Shown: positions 13,103 through 42,284 of the stretch, one piece after another
How the letters are laid out: every line of letters begins with the position of its first letter
How positions within the stretch are numbered: the stretch's first letter is position 1
NCBI GenBank assembly: GCA_047602425.1
Contig: JASGHG010000001.1
Location: forward strand, 4,768,001 to 4,832,000
Origin: Nibricoccus sp.
Lineage (GTDB): Bacteria > Verrucomicrobiota > Verrucomicrobiia > Opitutales > Opitutaceae
Length of the DNA stretch: 64,000 nucleotides
Direction of reading: 5' to 3'
Program-made: the position numbers and the translations under genes
The notes under the pieces: model-generated
The model's input: the letters and a program-made list of their open reading frames with translations, nothing else
Told to the model about the DNA's origin: nothing
The model's database searches: none

Positions 13103-13148
13103 CGCACTGTTACTTCCGTTTTGCGGGGTCCGTCGGGCCTTGTCTGTT

Positions 13149-13260
13149 TTTCATGAAACAGGCTGCGCTAACATGCGATTTTTAGCGTTCTTGCGCGGTT
13201 TTACCGTGCCCCTCTTTCTTTCATTATGAAATAATATTATTGACCACTTGTTTCATGAAC
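13149..13260. promoter_or_regulatory. Putative operator palindromes upstream of the catabolic operon
   Basis: TTTCATGAAA 13149-13158, TTTCATTATGAAA 13219-13231 and TTTCATGAAC 13251-13260. Confidence 0.6.
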
Positions 13261-13314
13261 CTAGAGGTTTGGAGTCTGGTTTTTCGCCTCTTTGGCTATC
13301 CAGCTCACACCACT

Positions 13315-15383: not shown

Positions 15384-15392
15384 TTTTTCGCC

Positions 15393-16547: not shown

Positions 16548-16553
16548 TACGTC

Positions 16554-20986: not shown

Positions 20987-20992
20987 TTTCCC

Positions 20993-27233: not shown

Positions 27234-28741
27234 AACTTCGTCTATTTCCATCACTCCTCTTCGCTCTTCTCACCACGCTTGCCCGTGCCGAAGTCGCCTG
27301 CCCGGTCATTTTTTCCGACCACATGGTTCTCCAACGCGAGAGCCCTGTCGCCATCTGGGGAACGGCCACGCCTGACGAGCAAGTCACCGTGGAGTTTGCC
27401 GGCCAGTCAAAAACCGCCAAGACCTCAACCGATGGAAAGTGGCGCATCGATCTCGACGCCATGCCTGCAAGCAAAGAGCCGCGCCTGCTCACCGTTCGCG
27501 GCAACAACACGCTGCGTTTCGTCGACGTGCTTGTGGGTGAGGTCTGGTTTTGCTCCGGCCAGTCAAACATGGAAAAGCAGCTCGGTCCGCGCAAGGGCCA
27601 GAAGCCGACCGACAACTACGAGGAAGCCACGCGCCAGGCCAATCACCCGCTGCTCCGTTTGTATCAAGTGCCGCACTACAGCAAACCGACCGACAAAATT
27701 CTCAGCCTTCGCTGGGTCGCCTGCACACCCGAAACCGTGACCGCCGCCGAATTTTCGGCCGCTGGCTACTATTTTGGCGCCGAGCTTCTGCGCAAACTCG
27801 ACGTTCCCGTCGGCCTGATCCACTCCAGCTACGGCGGTACGATGATCGAGGCATGGACGCCACGCGAAGCATTCGAGCGCACACCCGAACTCGCTCCACT
27901 CCTTGCCAAACCCTATCAAGCCTGGGTCAAAGGCGTCCAGGCCACCGAGCTTTTCAACAGCATGGTCGCTCCCTATGTTCCCTACACGCTGCGCGGTTTC
28001 CTCTGGTACCAAGGCGAGTCAAACCTCATGGCCGGCGACACTGACATCTACACGCTCAAGCTTCGCACGTTGATCGAAAGCTGGCGCGCGCTTTGGACCA
28101 AACCCGACGCGCCGTTCTATTACGTTTTGCTCGCGCCCTTCCGTTACTCGCCACGTGATAAAGATCCCGCACAGCTGACCGCCGAGGCCCTCCCGCTTTT
28201 TTGGGAAGCGCAAATCGCCACCGCCAAAATCGTTCCGCACACTGGCTTCGTCGTCACCACTGACATTGGCAATCCGAAGGACATTCATCCGACCAACAAG
28301 CGCGGCGTCGGCCTTCGACTCGCCACGCTCGCCCTTGCCGAAACCTACGGATCGCCCAACACCGCAGCCCAAAGCCCACGCTTCGCCTCGAAGGAAATTT
28401 CCGCCAACAAAATTATTCTGCGCTTCTCTCCTGCTTCCCCAGGCCTGAAATCCCGTGACGGTAAACCGCTCGACGGTTTCCTCATCGCCGGCAGCGATAA
28501 AAATTTCGTCCCCGCCAACGCAGTGATCGAAGGCGACACCGTCGTCGTCACTGCACCCGCCATCGCCAGCCCTGTCGCCGTCCGCTTCGCTTGGTCAGAA
28601 GCCGCCAATCCGAATCTCGTCAATTCCGTCGGCCTACCGGTCGCACCGTTCCGCACCGACGACTGGCCGGTCATCTACCGGCGCCCAGCGCCGTCGCCGG
28701 CCACCGAATCTTCTTCTACGCCCAAACCCGCTTCCCCCTGA
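27230..28741 (+). CDS. Sialate O-acetylesterase (SASA) family carbohydrate esterase
   Basis: FSDHMVLQR, GEVWFCSGQSNM, WYQGESN, DIHPTNK motifs; signal peptide. Confidence 0.9.
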   Translation: MKLRLFPSLLFALLTTLARAEVACPVIFSDHMVLQRESPVAIWGTATPDEQVTVEFAGQSKTAKTSTDGKWRIDLDAMPASKEPRLLTVRGNNTLRFVDVLVGEVWFCSGQSNMEKQLGPRKGQKPTDNYEEATRQANHPLLRLYQVPHYSKPTDKILSLRWVACTPETVTAAEFSAAGYYFGAELLRKLDVPVGLIHSSYGGTMIEAWTPREAFERTPELAPLLAKPYQAWVKGVQATELFNSMVAPYVPYTLRGFLWYQGESNLMAGDTDIYTLKLRTLIESWRALWTKPDAPFYYVLLAPFRYSPRDKDPAQLTAEALPLFWEAQIATAKIVPHTGFVVTTDIGNPKDIHPTNKRGVGLRLATLALAETYGSPNTAAQSPRFASKEISANKIILRFSPASPGLKSRDGKPLDGFLIAGSDKNFVPANAVIEGDTVVVTAPAIASPVAVRFAWSEAANPNLVNSVGLPVAPFRTDDWPVIYRRPAPSPATESSSTPKPASP

Positions 28742-28747
28742 ACTCCC

Positions 28748-29827
28748 ATGTGGAAATCCAACTGGTCCGAAACCCAACAACGCTTCAAGAAATGGTGGAA
28801 CCGTGACGGTCTGCTCGTCGGCATGTGGGGCGCGCCGGAGACCGCCGCCTGCATTCACGAACAAGTGGCCGCCCCCGTCGTTCCCGCAACCATCGACGAG
28901 CGCTATTGCGATCCCGCCTATCGCGCTGCGCAGAACCACTACCGCCTCTCGCGTTCGATTTTCCCGCTCGACGTTCTGCAGACCGCCAGCCCCGACCTCG
29001 GGCCCGGCACGCTGGCGATGTACTGCGGTTCCGAACCTGGTTTCGCCGAGGGCACCGTTTGGTTTAATCCCTGCATCGAACACGTTGAAAATCCTGAGGA
29101 GTTGCCTCCCATTCGCTTCAATCCGGAAAGCCATTGGTGGAAAACCACGGAAGCCATCCTGCGCCAATGTCAGGAAAAAGCGCGCGGCAAATACTTCGTT
29201 GGCTGTCCGGATTTGATCGAGAACATGGACATCCTTTCATCGCTGCGTGGTGCACAGACGCTGATGATGGACATGATCGAGCGTCCCGAGTGGATTGAGA
29301 AAAAAATCTGGGAGATCAATGCCGCCTACTTCGAGGCCTACCAGCGTATCTACGACATTATCAAACTTCCGGACGGCAGTTCCGTCTTCGATGCATTCTA
29401 CGTTTGGGGACCAGGCAAAACCGCCAAACTTCAGTGCGACGCCTCCGCCATGTTCTCGCCCGACATGTACAAGCGATTCGTGGTGCCCGCGCTCACCGCT
29501 CAATGCGAGTGGCTCGACAATACCATCTATCACCTCGACGGCACGCAGGCCGTCTGCCACCTCGATACCTTGCTCTCTATCGAACCGCTCGACGCGATCG
29601 AATGGACGCCTCAGGCCGGCATCGAACCAGGCGGCAACAAGCGTTGGTACGACATGTACAAACGCATTCTCGCCGCCGGAAAATCCGTGCAAGTCGTCAA
29701 TGTCGAACTCAGCGACATCAAGCCGCTTCTCGACACGATCGGCACCAAGGGCGTCTACATTCTTATCCAATTCAAAGACCAAAAAGAAGCGGACCTCGCG
29801 TTGAAAATCCTGGAGCCCTACTACTAA
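28748..29827 (+). CDS. URO-D/MtaA-CmuA superfamily putative corrinoid-dependent methyltransferase
   Basis: DILSSLRGAQTLMMDMIERPE, QCDASAMFSPDMYKRFVVPAL, IYHLDG motifs; no signal peptide. Confidence 0.7.
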   Translation: MWKSNWSETQQRFKKWWNRDGLLVGMWGAPETAACIHEQVAAPVVPATIDERYCDPAYRAAQNHYRLSRSIFPLDVLQTASPDLGPGTLAMYCGSEPGFAEGTVWFNPCIEHVENPEELPPIRFNPESHWWKTTEAILRQCQEKARGKYFVGCPDLIENMDILSSLRGAQTLMMDMIERPEWIEKKIWEINAAYFEAYQRIYDIIKLPDGSSVFDAFYVWGPGKTAKLQCDASAMFSPDMYKRFVVPALTAQCEWLDNTIYHLDGTQAVCHLDTLLSIEPLDAIEWTPQAGIEPGGNKRWYDMYKRILAAGKSVQVVNVELSDIKPLLDTIGTKGVYILIQFKDQKEADLALKILEPYY

Positions 29828-29836
29828 TTGCGCGGC

Positions 29837-30922
29837 ATGAAAAAACTTGGACTCGCCGTACTCGGCCTGGGTGAAGGCCGCAGCATCATTTCCGCCGGAA
29901 TCGAAAGCCCGCTCTGGGACGTCGTCTGGCTTTGCGATCTCGACGTCGCGCGCGGCCACGGCCGCATCGCTGAATTCCGCCTCGACCCCAAACGCTTCAC
30001 CACCTCCTACGAGCAGATTCTCGCCGATCCCGCCGTAGACGCCGTCGGCATCTACACGCCCGATCATCTGCACGCCACGCATGTCATTCAGGCGCTCGAC
30101 GCCGGGAAACACGTGATCTGCACCAAACCGTTTCTCAACGATCTCTCACAAGCCCGTGAGGTCTTCGCCGCGCAAAAACGCAGCGGCAAACAGGTGATGG
30201 TTGGCCAAAGCTCACGGCATTTCGCGCCCTTTGCCCGCCAGCGCGAACACTACCTCACCGGCGCTTTCGGCGAACTCATCACGATCGAAGCGCAGTATAA
30301 TGCCGATCACCGCTGGTTTCTGGAAAAACCCTGGGCAAAAAAACCTTCCTTCAAATGGCTCTTCGGCGGACTCAGCCATCCGGCCGACTTCATCCGTTGG
30401 TACCTGCCGGATGTTTCGGAAGTCATGGGCTACGCCGACCTCAGCCCGACCGGACGCGCTGGCGGACTCGTCAACCCCGACACCTTCCACTTCATTTTCA
30501 AATCCGCCACCAGCCGCATCGCCCGCGTGAGTGGCACTTACTCCAGTCCCACCGTCCCCGCCCAACGCGACAGCGGCATGAGTTGCATTCTCCGCTGCAC
30601 GCAGGGCGCCAGTCAGGCCGACTACCACGAACTTCGCTATTCCTGGAAAATCGGCGCACAGGCTGTAGTTGAAAATTTCGAAGGCGCCGAGGACTACTAC
30701 TTCCGCTTCGAAGGCCACAGCCACCACGCTGGCGAATATCAGAACTACATCGAGTACTTTGCCCGTTGCCTCGAACGTGGCGAGACGCCCAAACCCGACG
30801 TTCGCGAAGGCATCGTCACCATCGCCCTTCTACAAGCGATGGAAGAATCTACTACCGCCGGTCGCGCCGTGAAAGTTGCCGACATCCTCGCCCGCTATGA
30901 TTTAACCGAACTACTTGTCTGA
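29837..30922 (+). CDS. Gfo/Idh/MocA-family oxidoreductase
   Basis: AVLGLGEG Rossmann start, YTPDHLHATH, AGKHVICTKP. Confidence 0.88.
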   Translation: MKKLGLAVLGLGEGRSIISAGIESPLWDVVWLCDLDVARGHGRIAEFRLDPKRFTTSYEQILADPAVDAVGIYTPDHLHATHVIQALDAGKHVICTKPFLNDLSQAREVFAAQKRSGKQVMVGQSSRHFAPFARQREHYLTGAFGELITIEAQYNADHRWFLEKPWAKKPSFKWLFGGLSHPADFIRWYLPDVSEVMGYADLSPTGRAGGLVNPDTFHFIFKSATSRIARVSGTYSSPTVPAQRDSGMSCILRCTQGASQADYHELRYSWKIGAQAVVENFEGAEDYYFRFEGHSHHAGEYQNYIEYFARCLERGETPKPDVREGIVTIALLQAMEESTTAGRAVKVADILARYDLTELLV

Positions 30923-30948
30923 GGTAGGGACGGACCGCCGGGCCGTCC
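30923..30948. repeat. Single GTAG-type REP half element
   Basis: GGTAGGGACGGACCGCCGGGCCGTCC, identical to the left arm at 55245 and one mismatch from 61804. Confidence 0.8.
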
Positions 30949-30983
30949 ATAAAAAATTCCGCGCCCACTTCCCCGCCCCCAAA

Positions 30984-32330
30984 ATGACCAAAACCTCGCT
31001 CACCACCCGCTTCAGCTACGCCCTGCCCGACATCGGCGGGCAACTTCTCTTCGGGTGGATCATGGGCTACCTGCCCTACTTCTACGCCAATGTCTACGGC
31101 CTCACCGCCGCCGCCGCGGGCACGATTGTCTTTATTGCGCGCTTCGTCGACGCGATCGATGCGCCAGTTTGGGGCGTTATTTTCGACCGCACCCATAGCC
31201 GCTGGGGAAAATGCAGACCATGGTTCCTCTGGCTTTGTGGGCCTTTTGCGTTGTTCGGCTTCCTTTCCTTTTTCACCCCGGACCTTGGTTATGGCGCCAA
31301 GGTCGCCTATGCCGCGATCACCTACATTGCCTTCAATGTCATCTATACTGGCATCAACACGCCCGTCACCTCCATCCTCCCTGCGCTGACGACTTCGCCG
31401 CACGAACGTGTAACCCTAACGACATTTCGGATGTTCGGTTCGAAGTTGGGTTTCGCCATTGTGAATTTCACTGGCATCGACTTCGCCCGCAGGATCGGCA
31501 ACGGCAACGATCAGAAAGGATTCATGATCGTGCTATCCATCTTCGCTATCGTCTCGGTTGCCATGTTTCTCCTCGCGTTTCGCAACCTCAAGGAAGTGGT
31601 TAAAGTCGAAGAAAAACCCCAGCCCGTGGCGGGAGGCTTCAAAGCGCTGCGTGGAAACTGGCCCTGGCTGATCATCTTTGCGAGCAGCTTTCTTTTTTGG
31701 ATCGGCTTTATCGCACGCGTCACCGTCGCACCGTTTTTCTTCGAGGATGTCTTGCATCGCCCCGACCTAATCCGTCCCGCCAATCTCCTCGATTTCGCCT
31801 CGCTTGCAACCGCGCTCCTTTTGCCGTGGATCTGCCGCGCCATCTCCAAGCGCAACGCATGGTTGATCGGCCTCGTCGGCATGGTCGCCGGGCAGCTGAT
31901 CATCGCTGTCGGCGTGAGCCAGAATCTCTCTGTCTCGTGGATCATGGCCGGCTGGGCGGTCGGTTTCATTTTCAGTGGCATGGCGATGGCGATGCCCTTT
32001 TCCGTGCTCTCTGAAAGCGTGGACTTCGGCGAATGGAAAACCGGCATTCGCGCTGCTGGATTGCTTACGGCCATTGGTGCGTCGTTCTGCTTGAAGGCCG
32101 GCGCTGGGATCGGCGGGGCACTTCCCATGTGGATCATGGACGCGGCAGGCTGGGTTGCGAAACAACCGCTTTCGCCCACCACCACAAATGCGATGATCTT
32201 CTCTGCAGTCTGGCTGCCGGCCCTCTGCCTTGGTCTCGCCGCCGTGCCAGTCTTGTTCTATCAAAAATACGAACGCATGGAGCCGCGTATCCAAGCCAAG
32301 TTGACCGCACGTCGGCAAAACGCGTCCTAA
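30984..32330 (+). CDS. GPH-family (glycoside-pentoside-hexuronide) MFS transporter
   Basis: ARFVDAIDAPVWG..DRTHSRWGKCRPW, ERVTLTTFRM, DFGEWKTGIR motifs. ATG 30984. Confidence 0.9.
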   Translation: MTKTSLTTRFSYALPDIGGQLLFGWIMGYLPYFYANVYGLTAAAAGTIVFIARFVDAIDAPVWGVIFDRTHSRWGKCRPWFLWLCGPFALFGFLSFFTPDLGYGAKVAYAAITYIAFNVIYTGINTPVTSILPALTTSPHERVTLTTFRMFGSKLGFAIVNFTGIDFARRIGNGNDQKGFMIVLSIFAIVSVAMFLLAFRNLKEVVKVEEKPQPVAGGFKALRGNWPWLIIFASSFLFWIGFIARVTVAPFFFEDVLHRPDLIRPANLLDFASLATALLLPWICRAISKRNAWLIGLVGMVAGQLIIAVGVSQNLSVSWIMAGWAVGFIFSGMAMAMPFSVLSESVDFGEWKTGIRAAGLLTAIGASFCLKAGAGIGGALPMWIMDAAGWVAKQPLSPTTTNAMIFSAVWLPALCLGLAAVPVLFYQKYERMEPRIQAKLTARRQNAS

Positions 32331-32342
32331 TCTTTGCCCGTC

Positions 32343-34820
32343 ATGTTCATCGTCGAAAGTCATCGCGAATCCATCGTTTTTGCCAGCGGCGAACGTCGCT
32401 TGCGCATCGCGTTTGTCACGCCGGCCGTCGCCCGTATCACGCTCACTGAGGGCAAGCCTTTCTCCGAAGCGCCCAGCTATATCGTGCAACATCGCGCGCC
32501 CGCCGCGTGCTTTCGACTCTCCGAAGAACAAAATGCCTTCACACTTTCGACCTCCGCGCTTCAGCTATCGGTAAATAAAGCCACCGGTGCGATCACCTAC
32601 CGCGACTCCACTGGCAAAATTCTCCTCAACGAACCAGCCCGCGGAGGTAAATGGCTGACGCCAAAAGACGTTTTCAAAAACGTCTACGCCAAGAACGCCA
32701 AGGCCGCCACCGGCCAGAGCATCGACGGCGCGCGCGCCTCGGCCACTGACTGCGAACGCGTTTTTGATCGCAAGGCCTTCGAGGCGAAACTCGAATTCGT
32801 CTTCAGTGAGAACGAAGCGCTTTTCGGCCTCGGTTCGCATGAGGAAGGCTACGGAAACCTCCGCGGTAAATCCCGCGAGCTCTACCAGCAAAACATGAAA
32901 GCCGTCGTGCCTTACTTCGTCTCGACGAAAGGCTACGGCCTCCTGCTCGACTGCAGCTCATTGATGACATTTCACGACGATGCTTTCGGCTCTTACCTCT
33001 GGGCTGATGTCGTCGACGAACTGGATTTCTATTTCATCCACGGCGAAAACTTCGACGCCGTCACCCGCGGCTACTACGAACTCACCGGCAAACCGCCGAT
33101 GCTCCCGAAATGGGCCTTCGGCTACGTCCAGTCGAAGGAGCGCTATGTCAACGCCTGCGAAATGCTCGACGTAGTCCGCGAGTACCGCCGCCGCCAGATC
33201 CCACTCGATTGCATCGTGCTCGACTGGAAATCCTGGCCCAACGGCAACGGCTGGGGCCAGAAATCCTTCGATTCCGAACGCTTCCCTGCCCCCAAAGCTT
33301 TCATCGACGAACTTCATGCCCTCGGCGCCAAGCTCATGATCTCGATCTGGCCGATCATGACCGGCGATTGCCCAAACCAAGTCGAGTTGCGCGAGCGCGG
33401 CCTCATGCTCGGTAATCAGTCGACCTACGACGCTTTTTCCGACGAGGGACGGCGCATCTACTGGGAGCAGGCCAATCGCGGCCTCTTCGCCCACGGTATC
33501 GACGCGTGGTGGTGCGATTGCACCGAACCGTTCGAAGCTGACTGGACCGGCGCGGTAAAACCCGAAGTTCACGCGCGCCTCGCCATCAACACCGAACAAT
33601 CGCAAAGGTACATCGACGCCGGCCAGATCAACAGCTACTCGCTCCTCCACTCGCAAGGCATCTACGAAGGCCAGCGTCGAGCAACGAATACGAAACGCGT
33701 CATCAACCTCACCCGTTCCTCCTACGCCGGCCAGCACCGTTACGCGACTGTGACTTGGTCAGGCGACATCTGCGCGACGTGGGAAACACTGCGCCGATCC
33801 ATCCCGGAAGGTCTAAACTTTTGCGCGACCGGCGAGCCGTATTGGACGGTCGATATCGGCGGCTTCTTCATCAACAACGACCCGAAGCTCTGGTTTTGGC
33901 GCGGCGACTACCCCTCAGGCTGCCGCGGACTGACGCCGATGACCGCGCTCGAACCCGATCCAGCCGACACCGGCTGCAAGGACCTCGGCTTCTGGGAACT
34001 CTACGTGCGCTGGGTGCAGTACGCCGCATTCCTTCCAATGTTCCGTTCGCATGGCACCGACGCCGCGCGAGAGATCTGGCGCTTCGGCGAACCCGGCACG
34101 CCTTTCTACGACGCCATCGCGAAATACATCCGCCTTCGCTACCAATTCCTTCCCTACATTTACTCCGTCGCCGCCCAAATCACCCTCAGCAGTCGAGCAA
34201 TGCTACGTGCCGTCGCCCTCGACTTTCCCGACGACCCTCGCACTCACGATCTCACCGACCAATTCATGTTTGGCCCTGGGTTGATGGTTTGCCCCGTGAC
34301 CCAGTCGATGTACTACGGCCCGAATTCAACGCCCCTTCCATCCGACACCCCAAAAAACCGCACCGTCTACCTCCCCGCCGGACGTCAATGGTACGATTTC
34401 TGGACCAACAAAATCTACGAAGGCGGCCAGACGATCACCGTCGCCACCCCGCTCGATATCATCCCGCTCTTCATCCCCGCCGGTACTATTCTGCCACTTT
34501 CCGGCGAATCCATTCAGCACACCGGCGAAACAACGAGTACGCCTTATGAAATCCGAATCTACGCCGGAGCCGACGCCTCGTTCGACCTTTATGAAGATGC
34601 GGGCGACGGCTATGATTATGAAACCGGCGTCTATTCAATCATACACTTGTCATGGAATGAGTCGCGCGGCGAACTCACGGCATCGCCTCGTCATGGCACC
34701 TTTCCGCAAGCTGAGATCGGTCGTGAATACCGGATCGATTGCATTTCTCACGACGGGGTACGACGAGAAATATGCGTTTACGATGGCAGTGAACTAACCA
34801 ACCGTAGAACTCGCGACTAG
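32343..34820 (+). CDS. Cytoplasmic GH31 alpha-xylosidase-like glycosidase
   Basis: PKWAFGYVQSKERY, IPLDCIVLDW, WWCDCTEP (nucleophile), WSGDI (acid/base), FRSHG; no signal peptide. Confidence 0.9.
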   Translation: MFIVESHRESIVFASGERRLRIAFVTPAVARITLTEGKPFSEAPSYIVQHRAPAACFRLSEEQNAFTLSTSALQLSVNKATGAITYRDSTGKILLNEPARGGKWLTPKDVFKNVYAKNAKAATGQSIDGARASATDCERVFDRKAFEAKLEFVFSENEALFGLGSHEEGYGNLRGKSRELYQQNMKAVVPYFVSTKGYGLLLDCSSLMTFHDDAFGSYLWADVVDELDFYFIHGENFDAVTRGYYELTGKPPMLPKWAFGYVQSKERYVNACEMLDVVREYRRRQIPLDCIVLDWKSWPNGNGWGQKSFDSERFPAPKAFIDELHALGAKLMISIWPIMTGDCPNQVELRERGLMLGNQSTYDAFSDEGRRIYWEQANRGLFAHGIDAWWCDCTEPFEADWTGAVKPEVHARLAINTEQSQRYIDAGQINSYSLLHSQGIYEGQRRATNTKRVINLTRSSYAGQHRYATVTWSGDICATWETLRRSIPEGLNFCATGEPYWTVDIGGFFINNDPKLWFWRGDYPSGCRGLTPMTALEPDPADTGCKDLGFWELYVRWVQYAAFLPMFRSHGTDAAREIWRFGEPGTPFYDAIAKYIRLRYQFLPYIYSVAAQITLSSRAMLRAVALDFPDDPRTHDLTDQFMFGPGLMVCPVTQSMYYGPNSTPLPSDTPKNRTVYLPAGRQWYDFWTNKIYEGGQTITVATPLDIIPLFIPAGTILPLSGESIQHTGETTSTPYEIRIYAGADASFDLYEDAGDGYDYETGVYSIIHLSWNESRGELTASPRHGTFPQAEIGREYRIDCISHDGVRREICVYDGSELTNRRTRD

Positions 34821-34903
34821 CAGATAAATTCAAACTGGCTGTCACTTTGGTTCTTTATTAACGTCTAGGTTTTAGTAAACAAACCAGTCTTCAAATCCGT
34901 CCT

Positions 34904-37378
34904 ATGGGAGCCATGTCATTCAAACAGTTGTTCGCCGTCCTCACATCCGCTTGCGTCACGTTGTTATCATGCAAAGTTTCCGCGCAAACGGCCTTACCCA
35001 CCCCTGCGGTGGTTTCAACTGACGAAGCGCCTAAACGTTTCTTCAACTTCTTTGTTCCCTTTCGCACAAATCAGGTGGCACTCTCGCCCGACGGAAAATA
35101 CTTGGCCTACACTCTCCGAGAAAAAGATATACTATCGGTGGTTGTGGTTGACGTTGATAACCCCTCCAAGGCTACCGCAAAAGTAGCCGTCATTTCGAAT
35201 GAACAGGCCACGCCAATGTCGGGTATTAAAGACAAAGAAAGTCGGTCTGCGCAAATCCGTTGGATGGGCTGGACGACCGCCACGCGGCTCGTAGTAGAAA
35301 CTAACCGCGTTTTCCCCACAACGCTTGATGGCTCAAGTCCGACCGGCACTGACAGTAACGTGGTTGAATCCAGCAACCCGCTTTTCATCAATATCGTGGG
35401 AGAAATTCTTGCTTTTGACTACAATGGTCAAAACGCCCGTTCATTGCTCACGCCACGCGATATTCGCGAAGGCATACCATTTTCCTCGGGCAAGCAACGC
35501 TTATTGGCCCGCTCGCCCCATATCGTCGACTTTGCAGGAGATGACCCTGATTGCGTCATTGTACAGGCCGACGGTATTGTTCGGCCCAATAGTCTCCGCC
35601 ACGTCGAGCGCTTCAAACTCAACGTCAAGACTGGCAAGCTCAAAGAGCTCGACGATTATACTATTTCCTCTTTCCAAAATTATTTGTTCGACCGGGACGG
35701 CAAGCCACGCATTGCCATCCCCATCAGCGTTCGCGATCCGTTTCCTCATGTGATCACCTACGACAGTGGATCCACTTTCGGCAAATGGAAGCCCCTCGAT
35801 CAGCTCGCTACGCCGTCCGGTCGTGCCGCTTTTTCACTTTCTCCCAAAAACTATTTCGGCGAACGTTCGGTGCCACTTGGCTTCGACTACGACAGTAACC
35901 TTCTCTATTTCGCCTCAAATGTGGGACGCGACACATTTGGTATCTATGGACTGGATATGAAATCTGGCAAACTAAGCCATATGTCGGCTGAAAATCCTGC
36001 ATTCGATATGTACACTCCAGGTCCCGGCGTTTTCCCGGACTCGCTGGTATTTAGCTTGTTCGGACGCGAAGGCCCAAAAATGGCGGAAGAGACCTCCGAG
36101 ACTAATACACAGAACAATGCGATTGATGCATGGAATCAGGATATGGCCAGTGTTGCTGGAGCTGAAAACGACACAGCTATTGGCGGAAACGTTTCAAACG
36201 AAGCCTTGAATAGTCGGGCGGAAGTACAGGGACGTGCACCAAGCATCATTGGACGCATAGACGGTTATCCGCTCGTTTATGACCGATTCCAACGCAAGGC
36301 TGTCGGTCTGCGTATGGAGGGATGGGCCCGCACTACGCGATGGTTCACTCCTGACCTTCAGGCAGTTCAGGATGAGTTGGAGAGCGTTAAACGAGGATGT
36401 TCCATTCAAATTCTTTCGTGGGATTCAGCCCGCCAACGTTTTCTCGTCGATATCAATGGCGTGACCGATGCCGGCGCATTCTACATCTATGAGCCGGCGA
36501 AGAAGAAACTCTTGGAATTCGTTTCACGCGCCCCAGCGCATGGAAATCGCGATCCACATGATACCACTTTGTTTTCCTTCACAGCCCCTCAGGGCCACAA
36601 TATTTCAGGTATGCTCACCTTCCCGAGAACCGCACGCACAATGCCTGTGCCGATTATCGTTGTATGTGGCGAGCAACCGTGGGCTCGAGTCCATACCGAC
36701 TATTCGGCCGAGGTGTTGAGTTATGCCGACATGGGATTCGCTGTCGTCCAAGTCAACCCCCGTGGCACGTGGGGCTTCGGCCTAAAGCACCGCAACACCT
36801 TCAAGGACGGGTATGAGGATGCACAAATTGCCGATATTTCCGCGGCGATCGACCACCTTTCGCGGAGCTTTGCAGTTAACCGAAAACGCGTCGCCATCTC
36901 GGGGGTTGGCTTCGGCGGTTACGTTGCTCTCAGAGGCGTGCAATTGGAGCCGACTCGATATCGCTGTGCGATCGCGATCGAAACTATTCTCGATCTGCAA
37001 GGCTGGGTAAAGGAAGCTCGCTGGACCAATGGGGATTCCCGTCCACAGCTCATTCAAGAATTCCTTGGCGGTGCCGAGCGTCTAAAGAAATCTCCTCTGC
37101 TGACAAACGCCGAGACAATTTCCAACCCGATCTTGATGATGAACTATCGTGGTCCAGGCGGAACACTTGAACCGGCTGAATATATCGATGCCCGCGCTCT
37201 GGTCCGCAAAGTCAAATCGAAGGATGTGAATGCTGAAATTTACGATCTTTCCGATGATTTTATGGCAGGACTGCCCGAAGCGCGGAGTGAAGCCCACCGC
37301 AAAATCGAAGATTTTCTCAACGAGAATATCTATAACTACAAGGTAAAGGCCGGCGAATTGAAGATCCTAAAGGAATAA
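34904..37378 (+). CDS. Secreted S9 peptidase-like (beta-propeller plus alpha/beta hydrolase) protein with a degenerate active site
   Basis: LSPDGKYLAY, GFAVVQVNPRGTWGFG, RVAISGVGFGGY; the nucleophile elbow has no Ser. Confidence 0.75.
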   Translation: MGAMSFKQLFAVLTSACVTLLSCKVSAQTALPTPAVVSTDEAPKRFFNFFVPFRTNQVALSPDGKYLAYTLREKDILSVVVVDVDNPSKATAKVAVISNEQATPMSGIKDKESRSAQIRWMGWTTATRLVVETNRVFPTTLDGSSPTGTDSNVVESSNPLFINIVGEILAFDYNGQNARSLLTPRDIREGIPFSSGKQRLLARSPHIVDFAGDDPDCVIVQADGIVRPNSLRHVERFKLNVKTGKLKELDDYTISSFQNYLFDRDGKPRIAIPISVRDPFPHVITYDSGSTFGKWKPLDQLATPSGRAAFSLSPKNYFGERSVPLGFDYDSNLLYFASNVGRDTFGIYGLDMKSGKLSHMSAENPAFDMYTPGPGVFPDSLVFSLFGREGPKMAEETSETNTQNNAIDAWNQDMASVAGAENDTAIGGNVSNEALNSRAEVQGRAPSIIGRIDGYPLVYDRFQRKAVGLRMEGWARTTRWFTPDLQAVQDELESVKRGCSIQILSWDSARQRFLVDINGVTDAGAFYIYEPAKKKLLEFVSRAPAHGNRDPHDTTLFSFTAPQGHNISGMLTFPRTARTMPVPIIVVCGEQPWARVHTDYSAEVLSYADMGFAVVQVNPRGTWGFGLKHRNTFKDGYEDAQIADISAAIDHLSRSFAVNRKRVAISGVGFGGYVALRGVQLEPTRYRCAIAIETILDLQGWVKEARWTNGDSRPQLIQEFLGGAERLKKSPLLTNAETISNPILMMNYRGPGGTLEPAEYIDARALVRKVKSKDVNAEIYDLSDDFMAGLPEARSEAHRKIEDFLNENIYNYKVKAGELKILKE

Positions 37379-37387
37379 GTCTCTCAC

Positions 37388-37415
37388 GATCACGTTGCGC
37401 TAACGCAGCGTGATC
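37388..37415. terminator. Hairpin between convergent genes
   Basis: GATCACGTTGCG-CTAA-CGCAGCGTGATC, a 12-bp stem with one G-T pair. Confidence 0.5.
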
Positions 37416-38451
37416 ATACGCAGCAACCGCAGCGCATGAAGGCGTCGACCTTCCCGAGGATCGCCTGTTCGCTGCCGGGTACGCTGAGAACGTCGCATTC
37501 GCTGCCCAGAATAAAGGGATGTCCGACGGCGCGCATTTTTGCCAGCAACTCTCCAGCCATGCGTTCAACTTCGGCAATCGTAAGTTGTGCGGCATAGAAA
37601 CGTTTTGTCGGTAGATTGCCGTATAACACCGTGTCCTTCGGAATATAGGCGGCGTCCTCCCACAATTTCCGTGAACTCCCCAAGCTGATCATGGCTGCGC
37701 CCAAGCTGGCGAAGCGTTTGACCATGCCGTCGGTGAGTTCGCCACAATCGTGGAAAATCAAATCGACACCACGTTGCGCCAACCTCTGTGCGATGCGCCG
37801 CATCGGCGTCATGACGAACCGGTCGAAAACGGTAAAATCGAGCTCCAACTGTTTCGGTGAGAAATATACGACATTCGCGGCCGGTTCGCACACGATCACT
37901 GCCTTTGCCCCCGCTGCGATTTGTGCATCGAGATATTCGGCAATCACCATTTCGCCAGCATGTAATGCCGCTTCGACCAAAGCCACGTCGGGTTCCTCGG
38001 TTGCCGTCGCACCCGTTCCGGCGAGAAATACCGGCGTGATTGGATCTGCCAGTAGTTTCGTCATGAGCGAAAAAGGCCCGATCGACATGCCCATGGGAAC
38101 AAGTGTCGAAGTTTTTGCCACATGCGCGATAGCCTCGCATGAGGCCTTCATGCGGGGCGTCAACGCGACGGACTTCGGAAGGTCTGGAGGTTCGTTAAAA
38201 TGAAACTGACTGATTTCCGTCTTGGGAAGACCCATGGCCGACAAGAGGGCCTCTTTTTCCAGCGTGAGATCCATCAATGGAATGGCCAGTGGCGTCTTAA
38301 AACGCTCGGCCGTTTCTATCAAAATCGCCCCGAGTCGTTTCCCATCGTGAAGAATGGTCTCTGGTTCGGTATGCTGATGCAGCACGAGATGGGTGCCGAT
38401 CGGCATCCGCAAGCCGGAGGCCGCGAGGTCCAGATAGAATTTTCTCTCCAC
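37414..38451 (-). CDS. URO-D/MtaA-family methyltransferase (Zn-thiol type)
   Basis: GPFSL, VCEP, IFHDCG (H-x-C), YGNLP, ILGSECD; directly downstream of a corrinoid protein gene. Confidence 0.8.
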   Translation of the reverse strand: MERKFYLDLAASGLRMPIGTHLVLHQHTEPETILHDGKRLGAILIETAERFKTPLAIPLMDLTLEKEALLSAMGLPKTEISQFHFNEPPDLPKSVALTPRMKASCEAIAHVAKTSTLVPMGMSIGPFSLMTKLLADPITPVFLAGTGATATEEPDVALVEAALHAGEMVIAEYLDAQIAAGAKAVIVCEPAANVVYFSPKQLELDFTVFDRFVMTPMRRIAQRLAQRGVDLIFHDCGELTDGMVKRFASLGAAMISLGSSRKLWEDAAYIPKDTVLYGNLPTKRFYAAQLTIAEVERMAGELLAKMRAVGHPFILGSECDVLSVPGSEQAILGKVDAFMRCGCCV

Positions 38452-38460
38452 AATAACGCC

Positions 38461-39102
38461 TCAAGATTTTTCGCCGACCAGTTTCAACGCAATATCGACC
38501 GCGCTGGCCGCATCGAGGCTGTAGCCTTCTGCGCCGATTTCGTTGGCGTAATCCTGAGTGACAGGCGCTCCGCCGATCATCACTTTCACATTCAGGCCGG
38601 AAGCTCGCACAGCATCGATGGTTGTCTTCATGGCCGGCATGGTCGTTGTGAGCAGCGCCGAAAGTGCGATGAGCTGCGCACCATTCGTTTTCGCGGCATC
38701 GATGAATTTCGCCGGCATCACATTCGTGCCGAGGTCAACCACGTTGAAATTCGCGCCTTTGAGCATCATGGCAACGAGATTTTTGCCGATGTCATGTAGA
38801 TCGCCTTGCACGGTTCCTATCACCACCGTGTACTTCGGTTTGATGCCGGCTTGGGCAAGCAAGGGTTCGAGGATCGTCATGCATTCTTTCATCGCCCGCG
38901 CCGCGATGAGCATTTCAGGCACAAAGACCTCGTTGTTCTTAAATTTTTCGCCAATGGCGCTCATGCCGGGGACAAGGCCTTGTTCGACGATGTCGAGGGG
39001 CTTCTGCCCGGCTTGAAGGAGCTCTTGCGTGAGCTGCTTGGCTTCGTTGCGCTTGCCGGCTTGAACGGCGTCACTGAGGGGGTGGAAATTGCTCGTGGAC
39101 AT
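38461..39102 (-). CDS. Corrinoid (B12-binding) protein, MtaC/MtmC-like
   Basis: FVPEMLIAARAM cap domain; GTVQGDLHDIGKNLV (DxHxxG), SALLTTTM, GGAPV. Confidence 0.95.
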   Translation of the reverse strand: MSTSNFHPLSDAVQAGKRNEAKQLTQELLQAGQKPLDIVEQGLVPGMSAIGEKFKNNEVFVPEMLIAARAMKECMTILEPLLAQAGIKPKYTVVIGTVQGDLHDIGKNLVAMMLKGANFNVVDLGTNVMPAKFIDAAKTNGAQLIALSALLTTTMPAMKTTIDAVRASGLNVKVMIGGAPVTQDYANEIGAEGYSLDAASAVDIALKLVGEKS

Positions 39103-39182
39103 GGAAACCATCTTACCCAACTCATCCGCGGAATTCTTGTGCTTCCGGCGGATTCTTTTGTGCTCGTGTGCGGCAAAAACGA

Positions 39183-40790
39183 CTATGGCAACGACAAGTG
39201 ATCCAGGTAGCAGTTCTCGAAGCCGCCTTGTTCATTAAGCTCCAGAATGACGGCGTTGATGCGAAGCTTTTCCATCTGAACCAGGGCGTTTTTATCCAAT
39301 GCTGCCAATATCGCGCCGCCCAGCGATGTGTTGCCCACCACCTTGATCTGCTCCCGCGTAAAACCAGGCAAAAGGCCAATGGCAATGGCATGATCGACAT
39401 CGATGAACAAACCAAAACCGCCCGCCAGATACAGGCGACCGACGTCCTTCGCCGCTAATCCCGCAGCCTTCAGCAATGTTTCTATTCCGGCGCCGATCGC
39501 TGCCTTCGCTTGCAAGAGCGCCGCGACATCTGCTTCGTTGATGCACAAATCGCCGGCCAGTTTGAACGTCCGGCCACCCGGCGTGGCCGTGCATTTGTTT
39601 TTCGGCAACTGGCTCCATGTCGTGGCATCGAAACGTCCGTTGGCCAGCAGCAATCCCGATGCGCGTCCCTGCGCAAGAAAATCGACGTAGGCGGTACCGC
39701 ATAGTCCCGGCGCATCCTCGGCTTTTCCACCGCCGATCGTTTCAAAGTCAAAAACGAATTCTTCACCACGGCTAATCGTCACGTGCGAAATAGCGCCGGT
39801 TTGAGCTCGTGTGCCGGCGAGCAGGCCGGCGCCTTCAAATGCCGGTCCCGCAGCGGTCGCACAACCGAACAATCTGCCACCGGCATATAGAACTATTTCG
39901 CCATTTGTGCCGATGTCCACCAACAGGCTCGGTTTCTCATCGCAAAACATTCCCGTCGCATACACCCCCGCTGAAAGGTCCGCGCCGACATACGCGGAAA
40001 ATCCAGGCAGGAGCACCACGGGACAATCGCCTCTCAGTCCAAGCTCCGTGGTGTGAAGACTTCGGCTCGCGATAAATTTTGGCGTAAATGGAACCACACC
40101 CAATCCTTCCGGATCCTCGCCAGCCAGCAAATGGAGCATCGTTGTATTGCCCGCCACCATACAACCGGCGATTTGGTCGATGCTGCGGCTGGCTTCACGA
40201 CAAACTTCTGCAACCAAGGGCGCGATCGTTTCCAGCAGTACGGCTCTTTGCATCTGCTCGCGTGCTCCAGGTATTCCCGCCGCTACGATGCGCGTGATCA
40301 CATTGTCCCCGAAACGGATTTGCGCGTTAAAATCCCCTGCCCTGGCGAGCACTTCGCCGCGTAGCAGATCGACGAGCGCGACTGCGACGGTAGTGGTGCC
40401 CACGTCCACGGCCAGTGCAAGATTCCTGCCTTTTTCGAAAAGTTCCCAAGGTGGATCGAGCACCACTGGCATGTTGATCTCAAATGAATCGCCAACCTGT
40501 GGTTCAGCTTCCAATCGCGCATGATCCGGCACGCGCACCAGAAGGTCGTCGTTCGCTTCCAGTTTGATCTCACAGGACTTCACCGGCTGCAAAGTCTCTT
40601 CGCCCGTGATTCCGGACCGAACCAATTCAACCAGACAGCCATGACACCATCCTTGTTTGCCGCATCTCGTATTCAGTGGCATGCCGTGGGCCGCCAAAAC
40701 ATCCGATAGCACCGGACGGTCGGCGTCAGCCAGCGAGACCGTGCGCAGAACCACACTCTTCGCGTTTTGAATGGTTAGTTTAACCGGCAT
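39183..40790 (-). CDS. ASKHA/DUF4445 reductive activator of corrinoid enzymes (RACE) with an N-terminal 2Fe-2S domain
   Basis: CGKQGWCHGC...KSC; VDVGTTT, GNTTMLH, DIGTNGE, TAAGPAFEG, YLAGGFG. ATG 40790 overlaps the upstream stop. Confidence 0.92.
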   Translation of the reverse strand: MPVKLTIQNAKSVVLRTVSLADADRPVLSDVLAAHGMPLNTRCGKQGWCHGCLVELVRSGITGEETLQPVKSCEIKLEANDDLLVRVPDHARLEAEPQVGDSFEINMPVVLDPPWELFEKGRNLALAVDVGTTTVAVALVDLLRGEVLARAGDFNAQIRFGDNVITRIVAAGIPGAREQMQRAVLLETIAPLVAEVCREASRSIDQIAGCMVAGNTTMLHLLAGEDPEGLGVVPFTPKFIASRSLHTTELGLRGDCPVVLLPGFSAYVGADLSAGVYATGMFCDEKPSLLVDIGTNGEIVLYAGGRLFGCATAAGPAFEGAGLLAGTRAQTGAISHVTISRGEEFVFDFETIGGGKAEDAPGLCGTAYVDFLAQGRASGLLLANGRFDATTWSQLPKNKCTATPGGRTFKLAGDLCINEADVAALLQAKAAIGAGIETLLKAAGLAAKDVGRLYLAGGFGLFIDVDHAIAIGLLPGFTREQIKVVGNTSLGGAILAALDKNALVQMEKLRINAVILELNEQGGFENCYLDHLSLP

Positions 40791-41515
40791 CAGGTGGTTT
40801 TGCTTTTGAAAATCGATGCATCGACGGAATGCTGAAGACTGTCTCCCGGTTCGACTATCTGAAAACGCTTCGCGTCCCAACGCCCCCAAAGCAGATCCCG
40901 CATCAAAGCCGGGTCACCGGAGATTCGCTCAAATGACCAGCCGAGCCCGTCCGCACAACGTTGCGCATATTCCGCCTCGGCTTCGGCGCTGGAGGTCCCG
41001 AGTTCGAGGTAGATTGCGTGCCCGTGTTTGGCCCAAAGTTCACGTTCGGCTTCCACCAGATAATCGACGGTGTCGGCATCGTATTTTTTCGACAGTTCCT
41101 CACGCAATGCCGCGAGCCTTTCCTGTCCTGGTACGCGTCGCGCCCGGTTCCATCCCGGAGTATAAAAATATGAGTCGGGGGTTGCAGCTTGTATGTCCGC
41201 ATAGCGTTCTTTGCTGCCCATGAAAAGCGTCATGCAATCATGCGCGCGCGCGATGACGAGTTTGTGCCGGCCGGCTCGCAGCCCCGCTGTTCCCAGTCCA
41301 CAAAGCCCATAGACCAGCACGATTGCCTCAATATTGTCATGTTCATCCACTTTATCCACGGCCGATTGCAGGGTTTCGCGCATGGCCGCGGGTCTGTCAT
41401 GAAGCCCAATGTCAAAACGCTGGCGCAACTTGACGTGCAAAGCGTCCTTTGCGAGGAGCGCAATTTCATCCTCGAAGACCGAACAGTAGAGCAATCCGAT
41501 ATTAGGTGCATTCAT
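40790..41515 (-). CDS. DUF1638 family protein
   Basis: CSVFEDE, GLHDRP, YGLCG, RAHDCMTLFMGS, FYTPGW motifs. Confidence 0.85.
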   Translation of the reverse strand: MNAPNIGLLYCSVFEDEIALLAKDALHVKLRQRFDIGLHDRPAAMRETLQSAVDKVDEHDNIEAIVLVYGLCGLGTAGLRAGRHKLVIARAHDCMTLFMGSKERYADIQAATPDSYFYTPGWNRARRVPGQERLAALREELSKKYDADTVDYLVEAERELWAKHGHAIYLELGTSSAEAEAEYAQRCADGLGWSFERISGDPALMRDLLWGRWDAKRFQIVEPGDSLQHSVDASIFKSKTT

Positions 41516-42284
41516 TGGTTTTTATTCTTTCGGTCAATATCGGCGTTTTACTCACGCTTCCTGCCGACACGGCTTCCCGGTATTGTCGTGGCGTGGTCTT
41601 TTTTTGTTCGCGAAACACGTGCGTGAAATAGGCCTGGTCGCAAAATCCGCAGGCCGCCGCAATCTCCGCCAGCGATCGATCTGTAGCGCGCAACATACCG
41701 CAGGCCGCATCGACACGAATGGAGCGCAACAACTCCGTAAAAGACCGGCCTGTGCGCGCGCGCAGCAAGTGCGAGAAATGCCCGGCCGAAATGCCGGCGT
41801 GCTGTGCTACTTCTTCGCGCGTGAGCTCGCGTTCCAAATTGTCACGCATGAAGGATAATGCGCGGGCAATGCGTGGCGGCGAATCGGTTCGCTCCTGGCG
41901 TTCCAGAGCCGCAAAGATTCTCTCGAACGTTTCGCGCAACCAACTGGCCAGCTGTTCGTCGTCGTTGAGTTCGGCGAGTTCGGTCAGATGACGAAAATGC
42001 ATGCCGAGCACTTCGGCCTGTTCCACGCCCGCTTCAACCGTGGCCCGCGCCATCATGACAACAAGTTCGAGCAACAAGCCCTTGAGCAATTCCGTTCGCA
42101 CTTCACCGACGCTATAAATGTGCACCAGGATATGGTTGATGATCTTTCGCGCCGTTCGCCGGTCACCGCGCAACATCGCCGAAATCAACTCTGGTTCGCG
42201 ATATAGGTACAATTCCCTAATACCGTCATATGGGCGCTCGGGATCAACCGTCACTGCGGGATAGTCGTTGCTGTCAGGATTCAA
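41502..42284 (-). CDS. AraC-family transcriptional regulator (start uncertain: TTG 42284 or GTG 42254)
   Basis: C-terminal EEVAQHAGISAGHFSHLL...SLAEIAAACGFCDQAYFTHVF..TPRQYR. The track N-terminal extension overlaps the opposite-strand kinase gene. Confidence 0.85.
   Translation of the reverse strand: MNPDSNDYPAVTVDPERPYDGIRELYLYREPELISAMLRGDRRTARKIINHILVHIYSVGEVRTELLKGLLLELVVMMARATVEAGVEQAEVLGMHFRHLTELAELNDDEQLASWLRETFERIFAALERQERTDSPPRIARALSFMRDNLERELTREEVAQHAGISAGHFSHLLRARTGRSFTELLRSIRVDAACGMLRATDRSLAEIAAACGFCDQAYFTHVFREQKKTTPRQYREAVSAGSVSKTPILTERIKTNECT

What the first reader, a model, noticed from the sequence alone, without database searches (positions are those of the whole stretch)
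28748..42284. Corrinoid (B12)-dependent methyltransferase system attached to a glycan locus: candidate O-demethylase for methylated sugars
Seen: a URO-D-fold methyltransferase-like gene (28748) lies inside the CAZyme operon, 6 bp after the esterase. About 8 kb on, a convergent operon encodes AraC, DUF1638, a RACE activator, a corrinoid protein and a second URO-D/MtaA enzyme with an H-x-C...C zinc motif. Established: substrate methyltransferase + corrinoid protein + second methyltransferase + RACE is the layout of anaerobic O- and N-demethylases; RG-II carries 2-O-methyl-xylose and 2-O-methyl-fucose; the sugar O-demethylation I know of is P450-based. Inference: an oxygen-independent sugar methyl-ether cleavage system in which 28748 strips the methyl group and 37414 passes it to a thiol-type acceptor. 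No folate-type MT2 is visible in the window.
Basis: partly seen in the sequence, partly recalled or inferred. Interest (0 to 1): 0.88.

Follow-up and report, generated by a model that had tools for sequence, protein, structure and literature searches.

The report
B12-dependent demethylase for pectin's methylxylose
An uncharacterised methyl-transfer-fold enzyme sits in a pectin-breakdown operon next to a vitamin-B12 carrier system, and it likely strips the methyl group, without oxygen, from the methylated xylose of rhamnogalacturonan II, the one sugar link that a model gut bacterium was reported unable to cut.

Summary
28748 has no Pfam hit but folds like MtaA/URO-D, with H-x-D in place of H-x-C. 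37414-42284 encode an H-x-C...C methyltransferase, the genome's only stand-alone corrinoid protein, RACE, DUF1638 and AraC. The two blocks belong together: 28748 homologues are fused to corrinoid proteins and share operons with 37414 orthologues. The substrate can be narrowed. Close homologues sit beside alpha-xylosidase-type GH31 genes (12 of 16 loci, several GH31 clades). Gut Bacteroidaceae carry a cassette GH141 > GH31 > 28748-corrinoid fusion > symporter. It matches B. thetaiotaomicron BT0338-43 by gene order, and a 2011 table shows those genes strongly induced, most likely on RG-II. Best reading: anaerobic demethylation of 2-O-methyl-xylose (MeXyl-a1,3-Fuc) so that GH31 can cleave it. The acceptor is unresolved: 37414, homocysteine, folate and MtaB partners alternate between genomes. 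Against: wild-type B. thetaiotaomicron still secretes MeXyl-Fuc, three of seven Opitutales genomes with close orthologues lack RG-II markers, and no activity has been measured. My literature searches found no report of this reaction. This scan noted similar modules before on other DNA (for example e1-5126975). New variant of corrinoid O-demethylases; interest 0.78.

The parts
28748..29827 (+). MtaA/URO-D-fold protein, candidate sugar methyl ether:corrinoid methyltransferase (MT1); H262-x-D264 at the position of the MtaA H-x-C motif, no distal Cys
   Evidence: fold; motif; fusions to corrinoid protein, Hcy-MT, pterin MT
29837..30922 (+). Gfo/Idh/MocA oxidoreductase, recurrent partner (6 of 79 loci); role unclear
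30984..32330 (+). GPH-family glycoside:cation symporter, likely imports the methylated disaccharide
   Evidence: (TIGR00792 above cut-off)
32334..34820 (+). GH31 without an evident signal peptide, closest solved relatives are alpha-xylosidases (BoGH31A, E 3.5e-144); both catalytic Asp motifs kept
37414..38451 (-). Second URO-D/MtaA-fold methyltransferase with H234-x-C236...C319; candidate acceptor enzyme (or second MT1)
38461..39120 (-). Stand-alone corrinoid protein (DxHxxG, SxL, GG motifs), the only one in the genome besides MetH
39183..40790 (-). RACE reductive activator with N-terminal Cys cluster motif; start overlaps the DUF1638 stop
40790..41515 (-). DUF1638 protein, RACE partner
41502..42284 (-). 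AraC-family regulator, travels with the corrinoid operon
27230..28741 (+). SASA-family carbohydrate esterase directly upstream
19166..24805 (+). RG-II marker enzymes in the same operon: BT1020-like GH143 domain and BT0996-like GH2
   Evidence: PF24067; NF049877, 1229 bits
5095..6798 (-). Apiosidase-like (GH140) gene, RG-II context
   Evidence: PF13204
34904..37378 (+). S9-family exported protein between the two blocks; probably an unrelated insertion
   Evidence: 43% to its counterpart in L032 while flanking genes keep 64-92%; lower GC

Best explanation
28748 is likely a B12-dependent sugar O-demethylase that moves the methyl group of 2-O-methyl-xylose from RG-II onto the corrinoid protein 38461, which RACE is predicted to keep in the reactive Co(I) state. 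Shown: the folds, motifs, gene order, fusions and co-occurrence. Inferred steps: (1) GH141 (elsewhere in this genome, inside the cassette in Bacteroidales) releases the disaccharide 2-O-Me-Xyl-a1,3-Fuc. (2) The GPH symporter imports it. (3) 28748 binds the ether oxygen at a His/Asp/Glu(Gln) metal site and Co(I) takes the methyl group. (4) The ordinary alpha-xylosidase GH31, whose 2-OH-binding pocket looks unchanged, then splits xylose from fucose. (5) The methyl group leaves the corrinoid through 37414 to a sulfur acceptor (homocysteine or sulfide) or through a homocysteine methyltransferase to give methionine. Step 5 is the least certain. If the sink is methionine, flux would be small, which would explain why B. 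thetaiotaomicron still excretes the disaccharide.
For: Fold: MtaA best hit. Fusions of the 28748 family to a corrinoid protein (P0144), to Hcy-MT plus corrinoid protein (P0149; most of the 120 listed hits) and to pterin MT plus corrinoid protein (P0183). The partner varies and the 28748 domain stays, which places it on the donor side. The two window blocks form one gene cluster in L046, L076, L082 and G011. RACE is in 7 of 8 genomes with a 28748 homologue at E<1e-40 against 5 of the other 33. GH31 lies in 12 of 16 loci with at least 65% identity, against about 2% expected per 20 kb in this genome, and belongs to at least three GH31 groups only 25-33% alike. In 301 Bacteroidaceae genomes the same 13 carry the MT1 and the GH31, adjacent. 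All 13 carry the unlinked RG-II marker PF24067 against 0 of 20 MT1-negative genomes. In 15 Bacteroidales orthologue loci: GH31 13, GH141 11, corrinoid protein 10, fucose isomerase 5. The gut cassette matches the labels of BT0338-43, which are up 34- to 361-fold in two columns of PMC3243724 Table S1, read as RG-I/HG and RG-II. The MeXyl-Fuc link is the one RG-II bond B. thetaiotaomicron was reported not to cleave (PMC7939467).
Against: No enzyme activity is known. Wild-type B. thetaiotaomicron secretes both MeXyl-Fuc and MeFuc on RG-II (PMC7939467; bioRxiv 10.64898/2026.03.13.711244), so the cassette does not clear them in those cultures. In Opitutales the match to RG-II is partial: G021, G022 and G030 have close orthologues without strong GH143 or GH141 hits, and six genomes with strong GH143 hits (G007, G013, G018, G019, G020, G023) have no close orthologue. 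At 50-64% identity only 5 of 39 loci have a GH31, so the family has other substrates. 37414 orthologues occur without 28748 in G002 and G005. The Bacteroidaceae positives are kin and not independent, and the 80 gut loci collapse to 6-9 lineages. That 5F7C is BT0339 is recalled, and the table columns are inferred from a PDF layout.
Confidence: 0.6

Rival explanations
1. The system is a sugar O-demethylase, but the donor or the division of labour differs: 28748 acts on free 2-O-methyl-xylose after cleavage (by GH31 or by a redox route through the oxidoreductase), or on another methylated sugar, and 37414 is a second donor-side enzyme (for example for 2-O-methyl-fucose), with the methyl group leaving through the split MetH or the stand-alone homocysteine methyltransferase.
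For: In Prevotella-type loci the H-x-C enzyme is co-transcribed with fucose isomerase and coexists with a fused Hcy-MT. The genome has a split MetH and a second stand-alone PF02574 gene. The oxidoreductase's best solved relative is the glycoside 3-oxidase DgpA, though only over the N-terminal domain. 37414 occurs without 28748 in G002 and G005.
Against: H-x-C...C is the thiol-activating motif of MtaA/MetE (established knowledge). Loci exist with Hcy-MT but no H-x-C enzyme in the fetched stretch (L109, L114) and the reverse (L132-134, window), as expected of interchangeable sinks. No GH139-like gene was found in this genome with one query.
Confidence: 0.22
2. The corrinoid system takes methyl groups from a non-sugar by-product of plant-wall breakdown, such as methanol from pectin esters or aryl methyl ethers such as ferulate, and sits in glycan loci only for co-regulation.
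For: An MtaB methanol methyltransferase fills 37414's slot in the DUF1638-RACE-corrinoid operons of G022 and G024. An esterase lies directly upstream. Known URO-D-fold MT1 enzymes act on aryl ethers (PMC10418091, PMC8630106 passages).
Against: This genome has no MtaB. The tight pairing with an alpha-xylosidase-type GH31, a sugar symporter and GH141 would be unexplained. No aromatic-catabolism genes turned up among the recurrent neighbours annotated.
Confidence: 0.1
3. 28748 is not a methyltransferase but another URO-D-fold enzyme (decarboxylase, hydrolase) of sugar catabolism, or it methylates rather than demethylates.
For: Sequence identity to MtaA is only about 11% and URO-D scores as well structurally. 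Most loci hold no corrinoid gene within 10 kb (10 of 79 do).
Against: Independent fusions to corrinoid proteins and methyl-acceptor domains, co-occurrence with RACE and a catabolic context with an importer.
Confidence: 0.08

Closest known systems
Corrinoid-dependent aryl O-demethylases (OdmB/VdmB of Acetobacterium dehalogenans, MtvB of Moorella thermoacetica, MtoB of Methermicoccus shengliensis)
   Same: URO-D-superfamily MT1, corrinoid protein, ATP-dependent activator, adjacent transporter and regulator (PMC10418091 and PMC8630106, passages seen).
   Different: Predicted donor is an alkyl ether on a sugar, not an aryl ether; no folate/H4MPT-type MT2 in the locus; host is a glycan degrader without FTHFS by one query; 28748 is too divergent to hit PF01208.
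MtaA/MtbA/MtsA soluble CoM methyltransferases and the Mlp proteins of type 1 mlp clusters (Kountz and Balskus)
   Same: 37414 has the same fold and the H-x-C...C zinc motif.
   Different: NCBIfam scores are 19-41 bits against cut-offs of 235-600; one such enzyme, not two or three; glycan context; acceptor unknown.
Cobalamin-dependent methionine synthase MetH
   Same: Prevotella-type homologues fuse Hcy-MT and B12-binding domains, and Bacteroidales cassettes add a stand-alone MetH reactivation domain.
   Different: The 28748 domain stands where the methyl-folate domain would supply the methyl group.
Cytochrome P450 sugar demethylases of marine bacteria
   Same: Same purpose: removing a methyl ether that blocks sugar catabolism (PMC6292453, passages seen).
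   Different: Oxygen-dependent oxidation, unrelated proteins; substrate 6-O-methyl-galactose (recalled).
B. thetaiotaomicron BT0338-BT0343
   Same: Same gene set and order as the gut cassette L161 (GH141, GH31, MT1-corrinoid fusion, SSF, reactivation domain, H-x-C enzyme); 28748 is 41% identical to the L161 fusion.
   Different: Labelled only as methylamine-type 'Mta' proteins (PMC8941943); SAM-type reactivation domain instead of RACE, SSF instead of GPH, a different GH31 clade (24% identity).

Membership tests
Corrinoid-dependent O-demethylase (Odm/Vdm/Mtv/Mto type) | URO-D-fold donor-side methyltransferase | tested here: met
   Fold; fusions with corrinoid and acceptor domains
Corrinoid-dependent O-demethylase (Odm/Vdm/Mtv/Mto type) | Cognate corrinoid protein with DxHxxG motif | tested here: met
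   38461; single copy
Corrinoid-dependent O-demethylase (Odm/Vdm/Mtv/Mto type) | ATP-dependent reductive activator | tested here: met
   PF14574 + PF17651
Corrinoid-dependent O-demethylase (Odm/Vdm/Mtv/Mto type) | Dedicated MT2 to tetrahydrofolate or H4MPT | tested here: not met
   Only two PF00809 hits in the genome, one in MetH, neither a stand-alone MT2 near the locus; a pterin fusion exists in homologue P0183
Corrinoid-dependent O-demethylase (Odm/Vdm/Mtv/Mto type) | Aryl methyl ether as donor, shown methyl transfer to Co(I) | not testable with these tools
   Context points to sugars instead
MtaA/MtbA CoM methyltransferases (37414) | H-x-C...C zinc motif | tested here: met
   H234, C236, C319 invariant in 41 of 41
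MtaA/MtbA CoM methyltransferases (37414) | Score above the family cut-offs | tested here: not met
   19-41 bits against 235-600
MtaA/MtbA CoM methyltransferases (37414) | Coenzyme M as acceptor | not tested
   CoM biosynthesis genes were not searched
Type 1 mlp gene cluster | At least two MtaA-like proteins, corrinoid protein and Ram/RACE, all co-directional | tested here: not met
   One H-x-C...C enzyme in the operon; 28748 is on the other strand and lacks both Cys (criteria)
Uroporphyrinogen decarboxylase HemE | TIGR01464/PF01208 score at family level | tested here: not met
   37414 scores 39.6 against 303, 28748 has no hit; the genome has a separate 382-bit URO-D at 4427861
GH31 alpha-xylosidase (32334) | Closest solved relatives are alpha-xylosidases and catalytic Asp motifs are kept | tested here: met
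   5jou, 7kmp, 2xvg at E<1e-129; WWCDCTEP and TVDIGGF align with the BoGH31A motifs
GH31 alpha-xylosidase (32334) | Hydrolysis of an alpha-xyloside | not testable with these tools
   Needs an assay

The most novel reading that the evidence does not exclude
A widespread family of B12-dependent enzymes cleaves methyl ethers on sugars without oxygen. The branch seen here, together with GH31, finishes RG-II by opening 2-O-Me-Xyl-a1,3-Fuc, and in gut Prevotella-type bacteria a single MT1-HcyMT-corrinoid protein acts as a methionine synthase fed by dietary pectin methyl groups. PhyH-family dioxygenases beside the same gene would be the aerobic counterpart.
Probability: 0.45. Interest if true: 0.9.

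Novelty: new variant of a known kind. Interest (0 to 1): 0.78.

Why it matters
Methylated sugars are described as resistant to gut bacteria, and the sugar demethylases I found described are oxygen-dependent P450s (PMC6292453). One RG-II bond, 2-O-Me-Xyl-a1,3-Fuc, has no assigned enzyme in the model degrader (PMC7939467). This locus names a specific enzyme pair and substrate. Its counterpart, BT0338-43, lies in a genetically tractable gut bacterium, and the disaccharide can be purified from existing strains. The result would link dietary pectin, vitamin B12 and one-carbon or methionine metabolism in gut and soil bacteria, give a function to a large unannotated family (2066 cluster representatives at E<=0.001), and offer a non-oxidative catalyst for removing sugar methyl ethers.

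Tried and rejected
Sequence searches of 28748 against Pfam, NCBIfam and PDB found nothing meaningful; only the model placed it. 37414 had no PDB sequence hit. Promoter and terminator scans gave chance-level counts, and Rfam found no riboswitch in the window. Literature searches with no paper holding all terms: corrinoid + O-demethylase + methylated sugar (13); 2-O-methyl + rhamnogalacturonan + corrinoid + methyltransferase (28); corrinoid + polysaccharide utilization + demethyla + methylated (107); corrinoid + Opitut + methyltransferase + pectin (113); 5F7C + Bacteroides + GH31 (87). Searches listed papers, none of which by title or abstract start describes this reaction. One search was swamped by unrelated hits. 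The library lacks most subscription papers, Ndeh 2017 was not held, and the supplements of the 2026 bioRxiv preprint are closed and may hold mutant data on BT0338-43. The B. thetaiotaomicron genome itself could not be read; none of the 80 gut loci carried more than 2 of 5 marker motifs of 5F7C. The tree is midpoint-rooted FastTree without supports shown and has one misplaced row (L045); I use it only to note that the two GH31-linked groups are not neighbours. L070 dropped out of the 80-locus count because ORF picking missed its MT1. No complex prediction was run. Rejected: HemE duplicates, type 1 mlp cluster, methylamine system, and the S9 gene as part of the system.
Full report
Observation. 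The window lies in a complete 5.16-Mb genome; close homologues are named Nibricoccus and Opitutaceae. On the + strand: BT1020-like GH143 domain, BT0996-like GH2, GH2, SASA esterase, then 6 bases on the 359-aa gene 28748, a Gfo/Idh/MocA oxidoreductase, a GPH symporter, a GH31 and an S9-family gene. Convergent on the - strand: AraC, DUF1638, RACE, corrinoid protein and URO-D-fold 37414. The RACE, DUF1638 and stand-alone corrinoid genes are single-copy in the genome. RG-II markers surround the locus: apiosidase-like and GH143 genes in the window, GH138-like, GH95, GH106 and GH78 genes upstream, and a GH141 elsewhere.

What 28748 is. It hits no Pfam or NCBIfam model and no PDB sequence. An AlphaFold2 model (pLDDT 92) matches MtaA of M. 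mazei best by Foldseek (E 6e-9), and MtaA and URO-D about equally by VIA-align (Z about 21). A profile alignment puts its YHLDG on the FHDCG of 37414. H262, D264 and D231 are invariant in 62 of 62 diverse homologues, and position 285 is mostly Glu or Gln; the distal Cys has no counterpart. I infer an oxygen-rich metal site suited to activating an ether oxygen rather than a thiol. Homologues are fused to a corrinoid protein (P0144), to homocysteine methyltransferase plus corrinoid protein (P0149, and most of the 120 hits listed), or to a pterin-binding methyltransferase plus corrinoid protein (P0183). The acceptor-side partner changes while this domain stays, which places it on the donor side (inference).

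The two blocks are one system. In L046 the order is DUF1638, RACE, AraC, Hcy-MT, corrinoid protein, 37414 orthologue, 28748 orthologue, GPH symporter, GH31. L076, L082 and G011 also put the corrinoid protein and the 37414 orthologue next to the 28748 orthologue. Among 41 related genomes RACE is found in 7 of 8 with a 28748 homologue at E<1e-40 (missing only in a 72% complete genome) and in 5 of the other 33.

Substrate. Of 80 loci fetched from GTDB genomes, 79 were scored. GH31 is the commonest neighbour: 22 of 79 overall, 12 of 16 at 65% identity or more, 5 of 39 at 50-64% and 5 of 24 below 50%. About 2% is expected per 20 kb from this genome's five GH31 genes. These GH31 genes fall into at least three groups only 25-33% alike. 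The window's is closest to solved alpha-xylosidases, with the catalytic motifs and the Arg of the -1 pocket kept (role of the Arg recalled). The Bacteroidales one is closest to PDB 5F7C and YicI. In 301 Bacteroidaceae genomes the same 13 hold the methyltransferase and that GH31, side by side. All 13 also carry the unlinked RG-II enzyme domain PF24067, against 0 of 20 negatives tested, out of 288; these are kin. In 15 Bacteroidales orthologue loci GH31 occurs 13 times, GH141 11, a corrinoid protein 10, an H-x-C enzyme 9, Hcy-MT 5 and fucose isomerase 5. Eighty gut metagenome loci fetched by the GH31 show the cassette GH141 > GH31 > MT1-corrinoid fusion > SSF, facing a MetH reactivation domain and an H-x-C enzyme: MT1 78, GH141 75, corrinoid 74, SSF 73, reactivation domain 60, H-x-C 59 of 80. 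They collapse to 6-9 lineages. In RG-II the alpha-xylosyl residue is 2-O-Me-Xyl-a1,3-Fuc, the disaccharide left after the alpha-fucosidase BT1002 and other enzymes act (PMC7939467, passages; BT1002 as GH141 recalled).

Link to a model organism. The GH31 of L161 scores 1676 bits against 5F7C, which I recall as BT0339. The six L161 genes match in order the labels of BT0338-43: hypothetical, GH31, 'trimethylamine corrinoid protein 2', Na+/glucose cotransporter, hypothetical, 'mtbA'. 28748 is 41% identical to the L161 fusion, 38461 47%, 37414 26% to the H-x-C enzyme. In PMC3243724 Table S1 (parts 1-2 of 3 read) these six genes are up 34- to 361-fold in two columns. By comparison with BT0348-50 and BT0824 on the same layout I read the second as RG-II and the first as RG-I or HG; the PDF merges columns, so this is inferred. 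PMC8941943 (passages) lists BT0340/42/43 only as methylamine-type 'Mta' proteins. PMC10434189 (one passage) labels BT0339 alpha-xylosidase.

Against. Wild-type B. thetaiotaomicron secretes MeXyl-Fuc and MeFuc on RG-II (passages only, preprint supplements closed). Either the cassette works slowly, limited by B12 or by the methyl sink, or the substrate differs. In Opitutales three of seven genomes with close orthologues (G021, G022, G030) lack strong GH143 and GH141 hits, and six strong GH143 carriers lack a close orthologue. More distant family members sit with sulfatases, GH130, GH52, GH4, GH65 and others, so the substrate call applies to the GH31-linked branches only.

Acceptor. 37414 keeps H234, C236 and C319 in 41 of 41 homologues and folds like MtaA/URO-D, but scores far below MtaA/MtbA cut-offs. 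The motif suits a thiol or sulfide. Its orthologues occur in 6 of 41 relatives, two without 28748. Elsewhere Hcy-MT, a pterin MT or MtaB fill the slot. This genome has no stand-alone pterin MT2, and no FTHFS or MtaB by single queries. It has a split MetH, a second Hcy-MT, an O-acetylhomoserine sulfhydrylase and xylose isomerase. Homocysteine or sulfide are the likeliest acceptors (inference).

Mechanism. Shown: folds, motifs, order, fusions, co-occurrence. Inferred: import of MeXyl-Fuc, methyl transfer by 28748 to Co(I)-38461 kept active by RACE, cleavage by GH31, and disposal of the methyl group through 37414 or Hcy-MT. I put about 0.8 on a methylated sugar as donor and 0.6 on this full account.

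Comparison and novelty. It works like the aryl O-demethylases (PMC8630106 passages; PMC10418091 first of six parts and passages) but lacks their folate-type MT2 in the locus and is predicted to cut an alkyl ether. It is not a type 1 mlp cluster and not HemE. The sugar demethylation described in PMC6292453 (passages) is P450-based. PMC12282258, PMC13501991 and PMC8121099 (passages) showed no account of how RG-II methyl sugars are demethylated. Searches returned no paper, and 27, 44, 62 and 68 none on this reaction; subscription papers are mostly outside the library. Seven earlier notes of this scan propose B12-dependent sugar demethylation for other genomes. They are unchecked and not counted as evidence; a search for the GH141/GH31/methyl-xylose reading found none. 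Verdict: new variant of a known kind, interest 0.78.

Noticed in passing
G000:C1:4755324-4758131 (L016:6853-10821), about 10 kb upstream of the window: Two more divergent URO-D-fold genes flank an RhaT-type symporter between GH95 and GH106 in the same RG-II region; candidates for further donor enzymes, for example for 2-O-methyl-fucose, sharing the single corrinoid protein.
   Followed up: partly
G000:C1:1616106-1616909 (L017:10106-11209): An isolated URO-D-fold gene, 35% identical to URO-D genes of corrinoid clusters in G011 and G012; lacks the H-x-C motif.
   Followed up: partly
L035, L036, L037, L040, L046, L048, L063, L073, L076, L086, L090, L098, L111: A PhyH-family Fe(II)/2-oxoglutarate dioxygenase lies near the 28748 homologue in 13 of 79 loci; best solved relative is the sugar-acting oxygenase EvdO2, E 1.4e-10. 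Possible oxygen-dependent demethylase for the same sugar. No orthologue found in this genome.
   Followed up: partly
P0149, P0285-P0403; L112:7815-10820: Prevotella-type triple fusion of the 28748 domain, homocysteine methyltransferase and B12-binding domains: looks like a methionine synthase fed by a sugar methyl group.
   Followed up: partly
L146:6756-8138 (G022), L149:10390-11772 (G024): MtaB methanol methyltransferase sits in DUF1638-RACE-corrinoid operons of two Opitutaceae in place of the 37414 type; could use pectin methanol or release methyl groups as methanol.
   Followed up: no
window 11984-17573: LacI, iron alcohol dehydrogenase, DHDPS-type aldolase, four-carbon acid sugar kinase and PdxA2: likely catabolism of apiose or other rare RG-II sugars (pathway recalled). 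A RuBisCO-like gene lies next to the related cluster in L141.
   Followed up: no
L142:12338-18447 (G002): In a same-genus genome (88% complete) the corrinoid operon directly abuts the iron alcohol dehydrogenase gene, as if the 20 kb between them had been lost or moved.
   Followed up: no
G000:C1:3303819-3310623 and 3925706-3926560: MetH is split into a homocysteine-binding gene and a pterin/B12/reactivation gene, and a second stand-alone homocysteine methyltransferase exists; either could accept methyl groups from 38461.
   Followed up: partly
window 34904-37378: Exported S9-family gene with lower GC, much more diverged from its counterpart in L032 (43%) than the flanking genes.
   Followed up: no
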